From the NCBI GenBank assembly GCA_009914755.4, contig CP068257.2:1024001-1088000 (forward strand): 64,000 nt of DNA, given 5' to 3'. This document shows positions 20,223 through 21,617 of the stretch, one piece after another; position 1 is the stretch's first letter; each line of letters starts with the position of its first letter. A program made the translations under genes and the position numbers. The stretch is from the human T2T-CHM13v2.0 reference genome, Homo sapiens. The notes under the pieces were generated by a model. That model was not told the DNA's origin and made no database searches. It worked only from the letters and a program-made list of their open reading frames with translations.

Positions 20223-21474
20223 CTAAATCTCCTCCATCAGAGCCCGGTATTCTTCCTCGCTGAGGGGTGCTTCCAGCGAGGCGGCCTCTTACAAGGCCTC
20301 CAGCTCCCCCGCGGCCTCCATTTCTAGGAAAGGTTGTGCCTGCTGAAGAAACTCCGGGCTCGCCAGGAGCTCATCCAGCAGCAGGATGGAGTGGAGTGCA
20401 GACGAGCACCCCGGCTCCAGGAGCGCCTGGGAGGGTGCCGAGATGCCTTGCATCTGCCCCTGCCGTGTGGAGGCCTCTGGGGGCGTGGGCTGGTGAGGTG
20501 GAGTTGCCCCTGCTTGAGGTTCCACGCCACACCGGCGACCTGGGTACCCCTGCTCCACCCCCACCACGGACTTCCCTGGGACGCGGGTGGCGCAAGCACA
20601 CCTTGGCCCTGTGGCCCCGCTTGAGAGGGCCCAGGCTGCCCCACCGCGCAAGTGCCTGGAAGGCCGTCGCGCTGCGCGTCCCAGTCCTTCCGGATTTTGT
20701 CCTTGTGTGGATGCCACCAAGGAGTGTGAGTGTGGGAGAGCGCCCCTTCTGGAGGAGCCTGGGCGGTGTAGGCAAAATCCCCATGTGCTGGGGCAGGTTG
20801 GGAGATCCCCTCTGCCTGCGCGGCCTGGCTGGGCAGGAGCACAGGGACGGCCCTCAATCCATGGCTCACGAAAGCCCACTGTGGGAGAGCATGTGTGGTG
20901 CAGGAAGCCCCTTTCCCCACGCGCCAGTGTGGGCAAAGGCGACCCACGAGAGAGCAGGGTGTCACCCAATTGGGGCTGCATTGCACCGGATGCTTGCCTG
21001 CGTGGGCGCCCTGCCAGACTGTCCCCAGTGCCTGGCTCTTCGATTCTGAAACCAGATCTGAATCCTGGACTCCGGGAGGCCCGTCTCTCTGGCCAGCTCT
21101 TCCCTGGCAGCAATGCCTGGAAAGCGATCCTTCTCAAAGGCTCGGAGGAGCAGGGCGGTTTGGGATCCGGTGATGGCAGTCCGCTTTCGTCTGCCTTTTT
21201 GCGGGTCGCGTCTCCCGGGCCAGGGCCGAGATTGCCGCCGGTGCTGCCTCAACTGGCATGATCTCTCATTCTGAAACCAAATCTGGACCCTGGGCTCCGG
21301 AATGTCGATGCCCTGGGCCAGCTGTTCTTTGGTGGCAATGCCCGGGTACAGGTTCCGCTCAAAGCAGGCTCGCAGGGCATCGCTTTGACTCGGGGTCGAA
21401 AGGAGTATCATTCGCCTTCCCAGTCCCTGGGCTTCCTCGGGGAGGGTGTCGTCCAAAGCTGTCAGGAGGGCCAT
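20223..21474 (-). pseudogene. DUX4L: DUX4-like double-homeobox gene, disrupted in its C-terminal half (copy 2)
   Basis: ATG at 21472-21474 (MALLTALDD...). Both homeodomains are in frame (track ORF 20962..21885). The frame is lost after ...RCNAAPIG, with a stop at 20962-20964. DUX4 C-terminal homology continues in other frames (track ORFs 20324..20986 and 20289..21137). A nonsense TAA lies at 20289-20291 before the ancestral stop at 20223-20225 (...EEYRALMEEI*). Confidence 0.85.
20962..21474 (-). CDS. intact 170-codon ORF with two homeodomains but no C-terminal transactivation domain (DUX4-s-like); probably part of a pseudogene
   Basis: Translation [170 protein letters not shown]. Homeodomain 2 differs from human DUX4 (as recalled) at one residue. 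The N-terminal arm of homeodomain 1 is degenerate (GRRMILLST where human has RRRRLVWTP). Confidence 0.3.
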
Positions 21475-21607
21475 CGCAGGGAGCCCCGGCCGGAATTTCA
21501 CGGACGGACACGGGCAGAGAGGCGGGCGGGCTCCCGTGCACCTCAGCCGGCATGTGCCCTGAGGCAGGTGCAGCCAGGAGGCCTGCGCGGACAGCCAGTC
21601 AGCGGCT

Positions 21608-21617
21608 CTTATAAAGG
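21608..21617 (-). promoter_or_regulatory. TATAA-type box ~134 bp upstream of DUX4-like ATG (copy 2)
   Basis: Plus-strand cttataaagg within agcggctcttataaaggccc, the same context as in the other units. Confidence 0.35.

What the first reader, a model, noticed from the sequence alone, without database searches (positions are those of the whole stretch)
20962..21617. Unit 2 retains an uninterrupted 170-codon ORF with both homeodomains and an upstream TATAA box (DUX4-s-like)
Of six copies, only unit 2 has an open frame from the ancestral ATG (21472-21474) through both homeoboxes. Homeodomain 2 is almost identical to human DUX4 (as recalled) ([55 protein letters not shown]). The frame ends 17 codons later, so the C-terminal activation domain is lost in frame. 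A TATAA box sits 134 bp upstream. Established knowledge: a truncated DUX4 isoform (DUX4-s) that keeps the homeodomains without the C-terminal activation domain exists; if this locus were expressed and DNA-binding competent, its product would belong to that class. Inference: the degenerate N-terminal arm of homeodomain 1 (GRRMILLST where human has RRRRLVWTP) and the heterochromatic context make function unlikely.
Basis: partly seen in the sequence, partly recalled or inferred. Interest (0 to 1): 0.55.

Follow-up and report, generated by a model that had tools for sequence, protein, structure and literature searches.

The report
Known DUX1 gene copy, chromosome 21p
The open 170-codon double-homeobox frame is real, but it is the already described human DUX1 gene inside a D4Z4-like repeat in beta-satellite DNA, so it is ordinary and not a new DUX4-short-like gene.

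Summary
On the minus strand, ATG 21474 to TGA 20962 is an uninterrupted 170-codon frame with two homeodomains. A TATAA sits 134 nt upstream. The other D4Z4-like units in the window are disrupted or lack the homeoboxes.

The locus is not new. The protein is 167/170 identical to the last 170 residues of named human DUX5 (Q96PT3). It has the published DUX1 architecture: 170 aa, limited to the double homeodomain. A 2026 paper places DUX1 at T2T chr21:1,045,474-1,044,962, which is exactly the window coordinates plus 1,024,000 (16 x 64,000).

Published work reports that DUX1 binds DNA, is non-toxic, and was detected in a rhabdomyosarcoma line.

Details added here:
- The TATAA is shared by all five units that carry a promoter.
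- This copy has a 2-bp leader deletion that puts the family's upstream ATG out of frame.
- HD1 has lost R22, R23, W26 and R73.
- No AATAAA or ATTAAA lies within 4.3 kb downstream.
- Neither dN/dS nor ORF survival exceeds what pseudogene copies or chance give.

Verdict: already known, low interest.

The parts
19521..22267 (-). Unit 2: a 2,747-bp D4Z4-like (LSau, '3.3-kb family') element flanked on both sides by 68-bp beta-satellite arrays
   Evidence: TRF finds beta-satellite at 12190-19520 and 22267-26467. Self-BLAST shows the other units are only 83.6-86.5% identical to unit 2. External human contigs are 98.4-99.3% identical.
21671..21683 (-). Homologue of the GC (Sp1) box, mutated in unit 2: GGGTGGGACGGGC where units 1, 4 and 5 have GGGTGGGGCGGGC
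   Evidence: Promoter alignment of five units. PMC12376486 reports that DUX4 promoter activity is strongly reduced by mutating the GC box or the TACAA box.
21609..21613 (-). TATAA box, 134 nt before the ATG; conserved in all five promoter-bearing units
21359..21553 (-). Upstream ATG (21553) opening a 64-codon out-of-frame ORF that overlaps the main ATG. In eight related human contigs two extra bases (CT, at about 21522) put this ATG in frame and give the 197-aa DUX5-type protein.
   Evidence: P0142 shows the same deleted-leader frame in other samples.
20962..21474 (-). DUX1-type ORF: 170 codons plus TGA
   Evidence: The exact protein is already in the public collection as P0121. It is 167/170 identical to the C-terminal 170 aa of DUX5 Q96PT3. 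The coordinates equal chr21:1,044,962-1,045,474 in PMC13558733.
21241..21420 (-). Homeobox 1 (codons 19-78): 49/60 identical to DUX4 HD1, with R22M, R23I, W26S and R73C among the changes
21016..21195 (-). Homeobox 2 (codons 94-153): 57/60 identical to DUX4 HD2. The RRKR arm and Q143, N144 and R148 are intact.
   Evidence: Contact residues are taken from PMC5990521.
20962..20964 (-). TGA stop made by a single-base change (the other units read TGT)
   Evidence: Codon alignment of the units.
20226..20961 (-). Untranslated remnant of the DUX4 C-terminal coding region, recognisable but split over three frames
   Evidence: tblastn with DUX4 gives frames -2, -1 and -3. PMC13558733 describes the same remnant.

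Best explanation
This is the human DUX1 locus, a copy of the DUX1/DUX3/DUX5 subfamily of intronless double-homeobox retrogenes. It lies in a 5'-shortened D4Z4-like unit embedded in beta satellite on the short arm of chromosome 21.

Shown here:
- The ORF encodes a 170-residue protein consisting only of two paired-type homeodomains.
- The DUX4-type C-terminal activation domain was cut off by a TGT->TGA change and later frameshifts.

Inferred, or taken from the literature on DUX1:
- If the unit is transcribed from its TATAA promoter, the protein enters the nucleus and binds TAAT-core sites.
- Binding would run mainly through the intact HD2 plus an altered HD1.
- Lacking the activation domain, it would be at most a weak activator or a competitor at DUX sites. 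It is not a toxic activator like DUX4.

This particular copy looks poorly equipped for expression:
- A 2-bp leader deletion leaves an out-of-frame upstream ATG ahead of the main ATG.
- The GC box is mutated.
- No canonical poly(A) signal lies within 4.3 kb downstream.
- The unit sits in satellite DNA.

The most likely state of this copy is therefore coding-competent but silent or very weakly expressed. No selection on it is detectable here.
For: Identity:
- The exact protein is already in the public collection, and its cluster neighbours include named DUX5 Q96PT3.
- It is 167/170 identical to the DUX5 C-terminal 170 aa.
- HD1 is 49/60 and HD2 57/60 identical to DUX4. These match the 81%/95% similarity published for DUX1 (PMC5409219).
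- DUX1 is described as 170 aa and 'limited to the double homeodomain' (PMC4729438; PMC13558733).
- DUX1 is reported at T2T chr21:1,045,474-1,044,962, equal to window coordinates plus 16 x 64,000.

Context:
- A 2.75-kb unit in beta satellite, about 0.55 kb shorter than D4Z4, as that paper describes.

Function from the literature:
- DNA binding and reporter activation.
- No autonomous activation in yeast.
- Not toxic in C2C12 cells or mouse muscle, and nuclear.

Copy-specific features:
- Leader deletion and upstream ATG.
- GC box change.
- No poly(A) signal.
Against: - The window protein differs at three residues (L18, Q51, W150) from the DUX5 C-terminus. From my memory, it differs at the same three from UniProt DUX1 O43812. 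It may therefore be a paralogue or allele and not the copy that gave the original cDNA.
- The chromosome assignment rests on coincidence of coordinates, not on an alignment to the assembly.
- No expression, methylation or binding data for this copy could be examined.
- HD2 shows dN/dS 0.20 on the unit 2 lineage. Variable sites among DUX1-type copies are fewer in the ORF (7/513) than in the flanks (48/1358, p=0.013). Both could mean some constraint, which would argue against 'silent and unselected'. The second test is biased, because six of the eight loci were retrieved by protein identity.
Confidence: 0.93

Rival explanations
1. The copy is an expressed, selected gene. Its homeodomain-only protein acts as a physiological regulator, for example as a competitor of DUX4 at TAAT-repeat sites in germline or cleavage-stage cells, as DUX4-s does when over-expressed.
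For: - Intact ORF with a strong Kozak context at the main ATG (G at -3, G at +4) and a weak one at the upstream ATG.
- HD2 dN/dS of 0.20 on the unit 2 lineage.
- All DUX1-type contigs sampled keep the ORF.
- 4 synonymous against 3 non-synonymous variants among copies, none at a contact residue.
- Papers report a DUX1 cDNA and protein in TE671 cells and expression in muscle and heart.
Against: - Overall dN/dS of 0.57 is inside the range of the obviously dead units, 0.57-1.11.
- ORF survival has a chance probability of about 0.11 per copy.
- The copies are only 1-1.5% diverged and were mostly found by protein identity, so their intactness is weak evidence.
- Upstream out-of-frame ATG, mutated GC box, no poly(A) signal and satellite context.
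- DUX1 has no activation activity in yeast.
- The ape and monkey hits that carry names are at most 78% identical.
Confidence: 0.12
2. The open frame is a chance survivor in a dead repeat: a pseudogene with no product at all, whose resemblance to a gene is only inherited sequence.
For: - GC-rich DNA with long ORFs in every frame.
- Survival probability of 0.11 with five copies.
- dN/dS is not distinguishable from the disrupted units.
- Holland et al. regarded DUX1-DUX5 as probably non-functional (PMC2211742).
Against: - The same ORF is kept in at least eight other nearly identical human copies.
- Experimental papers report a DUX1 cDNA, a protein detected with a DUX1-specific serum, and DNA binding.
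- This rival overlaps with the best explanation for this copy and differs only on whether any family member is ever expressed.
Confidence: 0.35
3. The open frame is an assembly or consensus error in a hard-to-assemble satellite region.
For: The region is a beta-satellite/LSau composite, which is notoriously hard to assemble. The 2-bp leader deletion lies in a CT dinucleotide run.
Against: - Three independent contigs from unrelated samples encode exactly the same 170 residues, and five more encode 1-3-residue variants.
- The deleted-leader reading frame is also seen in P0142, from four contigs.
Confidence: 0.02

Closest known systems
DUX1 (Ding et al. 1998; UniProt O43812), as placed on T2T chr21 by PMC13558733
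   Same: - 170 aa with two homeodomains only.
- The same N-terminus ([17 protein letters not shown]...) and the same C-terminus (...IRCNAAPIG).
- Carried in a 3.3-kb-family unit on an acrocentric short arm.
- Identical coordinates after the 1,024,000 offset.
   Different: By my recollection of O43812, three residues differ (L18 for P, Q51 for E, W150 for R). I could not retrieve the cDNA record to check them or to check the leader.
DUX5 / DUX3 (Beckers et al. 2001; DUX5 = Q96PT3, 197 aa)
   Same: The last 170 residues are 98% identical (167/170). The promoter and the unit type are the same.
   Different: DUX5-type copies start 27 codons earlier, at the upstream ATG. In this window a 2-bp deletion puts that ATG out of frame, so only the 170-aa frame remains.
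DUX4-s (short isoform of DUX4)
   Same: Keeps both homeodomains and lacks the C-terminal activation domain. Non-toxic on over-expression, like DUX1 and DUX5 (PMC5409219).
   Different: - From my own knowledge, DUX4-s arises by splicing within the DUX4 ORF at 4q35/10q26. This product arises from a nonsense mutation in a divergent paralogue.
- HD1 differs from DUX4 at 11 of 60 positions, including R22, R23, W26 and R73.
DUX4 (D4Z4, 4q35)
   Same: Homologous retrogene. HD2 is 95% identical. The TATAA box is homologous to the DUX4 TACAA box, and a GC-box homologue is present. As recalled, internal D4Z4 units likewise lack a poly(A) signal.
   Different: No activation domain. The unit is 0.55 kb shorter. 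It is interspersed singly in beta satellite and not in a homogeneous tandem array. Neighbouring units are only about 85% identical.

Membership tests
DUX1/DUX3/DUX5 subfamily of double-homeobox genes | Protein at least 95% identical to named members over the 170-residue core | tested here: met
   167/170 identical to the C-terminal 170 aa of DUX5 Q96PT3, named by NCBI and UniRef.
DUX1/DUX3/DUX5 subfamily of double-homeobox genes | ORF limited to two homeodomains (170 aa from the DUX1 ATG), ending ...NAAPIG | tested here: met
   Described in PMC4729438 and PMC13558733.
DUX1/DUX3/DUX5 subfamily of double-homeobox genes | Intronless gene inside a 3.3-kb-family (D4Z4-like) element in heterochromatin of an acrocentric short arm | tested here: met
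   A continuous ORF in a 2.75-kb D4Z4-like unit between beta-satellite arrays. The chromosome is assigned by exact coordinate coincidence with PMC13558733, not by alignment.
DUX1/DUX3/DUX5 subfamily of double-homeobox genes | Transcribed, with a cDNA recovered | not testable with these tools
   No RNA data available. The literature reports a related cDNA in TE671 cells.
DUX1/DUX3/DUX5 subfamily of double-homeobox genes | Sequence-specific DNA binding | not testable with these tools
   - Reported for DUX1.
- In this ORF the HD2 contact residues and HD1 Q68/N69 are present, but HD1 R22, R23 and R73 are replaced.
- The AlphaFold model was unusable.
DUX4-s (short DUX4 isoform) | Product of the DUX4 gene itself (4q35/10q26 D4Z4) through an internal splice donor (my own knowledge) | tested here: not met
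   A divergent paralogue, 128/153 identical to DUX4. It is truncated by a TGT->TGA change and lies in a beta-satellite context.
DUX4-s (short DUX4 isoform) | Both homeodomains kept and the C-terminal activation domain absent | tested here: met
Paired-like homeodomain proteins (Pfam PF00046) | Homeodomain profile match above the curated cut-off, twice | tested here: met
   HD1 scores 49.2 bits on profile positions 8-53 only, so the arm is not matched. HD2 scores 72.0 bits on positions 1-55. The cut-off is 22.9.
Full-length DUX4-type activator | Continuous ORF through the C-terminal activation domain (about 424 aa) | tested here: not met
   A stop at codon 171 and two later frameshifts.

The most novel reading that the evidence does not exclude
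The 2-bp leader deletion that removes the 27-residue DUX5-type N-terminal extension marks this chr21 copy (and the P0142-type copies) as the true source of the 170-aa DUX1 product. On this reading, that copy escapes satellite silencing in germline or cleavage-stage cells and acts as a human-lineage competitor of DUX4 at its binding sites.
Probability: 0.04. Interest if true: 0.5.

Novelty: already known. Interest (0 to 1): 0.1.

Why it matters
The finding matters little as a discovery. DUX1 has been known since 1998, and this exact interval was reported as DUX1 in the T2T assembly in 2026.

The practical value is mainly cautionary:
- Homeodomain-only DUX ORFs on acrocentric arms are a known class.
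- An open frame in 64% GC repeat DNA is weak evidence on its own.
- Copy-level differences decide which of the many near-identical copies could make protein. Here these are the leader deletion, the upstream ATG, the GC box and the lack of a poly(A) signal. They are relevant to anyone assigning DUX-like reads in FSHD, cancer or embryo data sets.

Tried and rejected
- **AlphaFold2.** Run on the 170-aa protein with a 34-sequence alignment of close homologues. Mean pLDDT was 42.8 with no residue above 70, so it was useless for judging HD1, and no fold search was run.
- **Rfam scan of the whole window.** No family reached its gathering score.
- **Promoter/terminator scan.** It covers bacterial consensus sites only. 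It found nothing and is irrelevant to a human locus.
- **dN/dS within the window.** The unit 2 lineage gave 0.57 overall, HD1 0.44 and HD2 0.20. The disrupted units gave 0.57-1.11. Counts are too small, so the result is inconclusive.
- **Variation among DUX1-type copies.** The ORF has fewer variable sites than the flanks (p=0.013). The test is biased because six of the eight loci were fetched by protein identity, so I do not accept it as evidence of selection.
- **Metagenome scan with a DUX1-specific 24-mer.** It returned only three loci.
- **Ding et al. 1998.** The paper is not held in the library. The DUX1 cDNA leader and exact residues could not be checked, and my recalled O43812 sequence is marked as memory. 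That exact sequence is in the collection without a name and equals the DUX5 C-terminus.
- **Rejected readings.** A DUX4-s isoform fails the membership test. An assembly artefact is excluded by independent contigs.

Full report
**1. The observation**

On the minus strand an ATG at 21474-21472 opens a frame that runs 170 codons to a TGA at 20964-20962. The protein begins [32 protein letters not shown] and ends IRCNAAPIG.

- Pfam finds two homeodomains. Scanned separately, HD1 scores 49.2 bits and matches only profile positions 8-53. HD2 scores 72.0 bits over positions 1-55. DUX4 HD1 scores 66.1 bits over positions 1-55.
- Against solved DUX4 structures (5z6z, 6e8c and others) the protein aligns end to end, with E = 8e-79.
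- HD2 differs from DUX4 at V101I, P150W and G153S.
- HD1 differs at 11 of 60 positions: R22M, R23I, V25L, W26S, E32D, P42L, R49K, R51Q, A55G, G57D and R73C.
- A TATAA lies at 21613-21609, 134 nt before the ATG.
- The stop is a single-base change. The other units read TGT at this codon. DUX4-homologous sequence continues downstream but shifts through three frames.

Every factual element of the finding is therefore correct.

**2. The surroundings**

The window is 68-bp beta satellite interrupted by D4Z4-like units:

| Unit | Coordinates | State |
|---|---|---|
| 1 | 7423-10142 | full length, about 2.75 kb |
| 2 | 19521-22267 | full length, carries the ORF |
| 3 | 26489-29244 | full length |
| 4 | 38147-40540 | internal deletion of about 360 bp |
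| 5 | 48981-51753 | full length |
| 6 | 58104-59465 | 3' part only, no homeoboxes, followed by an inverted fragment at 59496-59844 |

- Unit 2 is only 83.6-86.5% identical to the others.
- Units 3, 4 and 5 have stops inside the first 170 codons. Unit 4 also has a 1-base gap in the DNA alignment.
- Unit 1 has two stops and a 1-base gap in the HD1 arm. Its ATG-homologous codon is out of frame with its homeoboxes.
- The claim that only unit 2 is open holds.
- The TATAA (CCTTTATAAGAGCC) is present in all five units that have a promoter, so it is ancestral and not a mark of unit 2.
- Unit 2 carries GGGACGGG where units 1, 4 and 5 have the GC-box core GGGGCGGG.

**3. Is it more than chance?**

The evidence is weak.

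- The unit is 64% GC, and non-homologous frames in it carry ORFs of 220-282 aa.
- Unit 2 differs from the majority consensus of the other units at 51 sites in 510 bp. In simulation, 11% of sequences with that many random substitutions keep the frame free of stops. One survivor among five copies is therefore unremarkable.
- Lineage-specific dN/dS for unit 2 is 0.57 overall, with HD1 0.44 and HD2 0.20. The visibly dead units give 0.57, 0.95, 0.58 and 1.11. Only HD2 hints at past constraint, on 4 non-synonymous and 6 synonymous changes.

**4. What it is**

- A protein search gave human-derived sequences at 98-99% identity (P0001, P0002) and many primate 'double homeobox protein 1-like' entries at 78% or less.
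- Exact look-up showed that the 170-aa protein is already in the public collection (P0121). The neighbouring cluster contains DUX5, NP_036281.2 / Q96PT3, 197 aa. The last 170 residues of DUX5 differ from the window protein only at L18P, Q51E and W150R.
- Papers describe DUX1 as a 170-residue protein 'limited to the double homeodomain'. It is encoded by a cDNA homologous to dispersed 3.3-kb repeats on acrocentric chromosomes (PMC4729438, PMC2211742, PMC13558733).
- The published similarities of DUX1 to the DUX4 homeodomains, 81% and 95% (PMC5409219), match the 49/60 and 57/60 identities counted here.
- PMC13558733 reports 'DUX1 on chromosome 21 (chr21:1,045,474-1,044,962)' in the human T2T assembly. 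It describes 170 aa, DUX4-like sequence continuing after the stop, and pseudo-D4Z4 units about 0.6 kb shorter than D4Z4.
- Subtracting the window coordinates 21474 and 20962 gives 1,024,000 both times, which is exactly 16 x 64,000. The window is therefore almost certainly chr21:1,024,001-1,088,000. The finding is the interval already published as DUX1.
- The unit type and its beta-satellite setting correspond to the LSAU-BSAT composite annotated in T2T-CHM13.

**5. Related copies**

Eight independent contigs of human DNA carried in metagenome assemblies match unit 2 at 98.4-99.3% identity. The matches extend into the flanking beta satellite on both sides (L001-L007 and L009).

- All eight keep the 170-codon frame. 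Three encode exactly the window protein.
- The open frame is therefore not an assembly error.
- The DUX1-type unit has spread as part of larger segments, not by local tandem duplication.
- All eight have two extra bases (CT) at about 21522. That places an upstream ATG (window 21553) in frame and yields the 197-aa DUX5-type protein.
- In the window, the 2-bp deletion leaves that ATG out of frame. It heads a 64-codon ORF that overlaps the main ATG.
- The same deleted-leader frame appears in P0142, seen on four contigs, so the deletion is a real variant.
- The upstream ATG has a weak context (C at -3, C at +4). The main ATG has a strong one (G at -3, G at +4). Leaky scanning is possible, which is my inference.

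**6. How it most likely works**

Shown here: the gene can encode a homeodomain-only DUX protein.

- HD2 retains the RRKR arm and Q143, N144 and R148.
- HD1 retains Q68 and N69. It has lost two of the four arm arginines, the position-8 aromatic residue (W26S) and R73.
- In DUX4/IGH, N69A, R73A, N144A or R148A each abolish activity. Single arm mutations are milder (PMC5990521).

From the literature on DUX1:

- It binds a specific TAAT-core site and activates a reporter when co-expressed.
- It has no autonomous activation in yeast.
- It is nuclear, and it is non-toxic in C2C12 cells and mouse muscle, like DUX4-s.
- Its HD1 alone binds desmin in two-hybrid reconstruction.

Inferred: without the DUX4 C-terminus, which recruits p300/CBP (title and abstract of PMC4914088), the product is at most a weak activator or a competitor at DUX sites.

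For this copy, several features argue for silence or very low output. None of them was tested.

- The out-of-frame upstream ATG.
- The altered GC box.
- The absence of AATAAA or ATTAAA for 4.3 kb downstream.
- The satellite context.

**7. Comparison and verdict**

- The locus works like DUX4-s in architecture but is not DUX4-s. It is a divergent paralogue truncated by a nonsense mutation.
- It meets every testable criterion for the DUX1/DUX3/DUX5 subfamily.
- It is 'already known'.
- The only small additions here are copy-level details: the leader deletion that separates 170-aa from 197-aa forms, R73C in HD1, the shared TATAA, the GC-box change and the lack of a poly(A) signal.
- Interest is low.

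**8. What led nowhere**

- The AlphaFold model had mean pLDDT 42.8.
- Rfam gave no hits.
- The bacterial promoter scan is irrelevant here.
- Ding et al. 1998 is not held in the library.
- The contrast between ORF and flanks among copies (7/513 against 48/1358 variable sites, p=0.013) is biased by how the loci were retrieved.

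Noticed in passing
window 48981-51753 (unit 5), ORF homologue 49690-50955 minus strand: Unit 5 aligns to the whole 424-residue DUX4 in a single frame with no frameshift. It is interrupted only by three in-frame stops and still ends ...[10 protein letters not shown]. It is the best-preserved full-length DUX4-type frame in the window.
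   Followed up: partly
window 59465-60116: After the truncated unit 6 comes an inverted fragment of the unit's 3' end (59496-59844). The beta-satellite consensus then flips to the reverse complement from 60116 onward. This points to an inversion breakpoint in the array.
   Followed up: no
window 16665-16670 minus strand: The nearest canonical poly(A) hexamer downstream of the ORF is an ATTAAA inside a variant beta-satellite monomer (GATATATTAAAATGCCCC). From memory, this is the same sequence context as the pLAM ATTAAA that stabilises DUX4 mRNA on 4qA. It lies 4.3 kb from the stop.
   Followed up: no
window 38147-40540 (unit 4): Unit 4 lacks about 360 bp, corresponding to positions 1030-1389 of unit 2. 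This is an internal deletion within the former C-terminal coding region.
   Followed up: no
protein P0003: This 172-aa human-derived protein has a DUX4-like HD1 but a linker and HD2 identical to the DUX1 type ([16 protein letters not shown]...). That suggests mosaic units made by gene conversion between subfamilies.
   Followed up: no
proteins P0095 and P0112: Human DUX fragments are deposited as bacterial proteins: a 'homeobox domain-containing protein' of Cutibacterium acnes, and an UNVERIFIED_CONTAM entry of Salmonella enterica. Most hits come from metagenome assemblies, several of them from human gut. This is human contamination in public microbial data.
   Followed up: no
L002/L003 versus window 19889-20023: Two of the DUX1-type contigs carry a dense cluster of about 18 differences in roughly 130 bp near the 3' end of the unit, while staying about 99% identical elsewhere. 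It looks like a short conversion tract or an alternative 3' junction.
   Followed up: no
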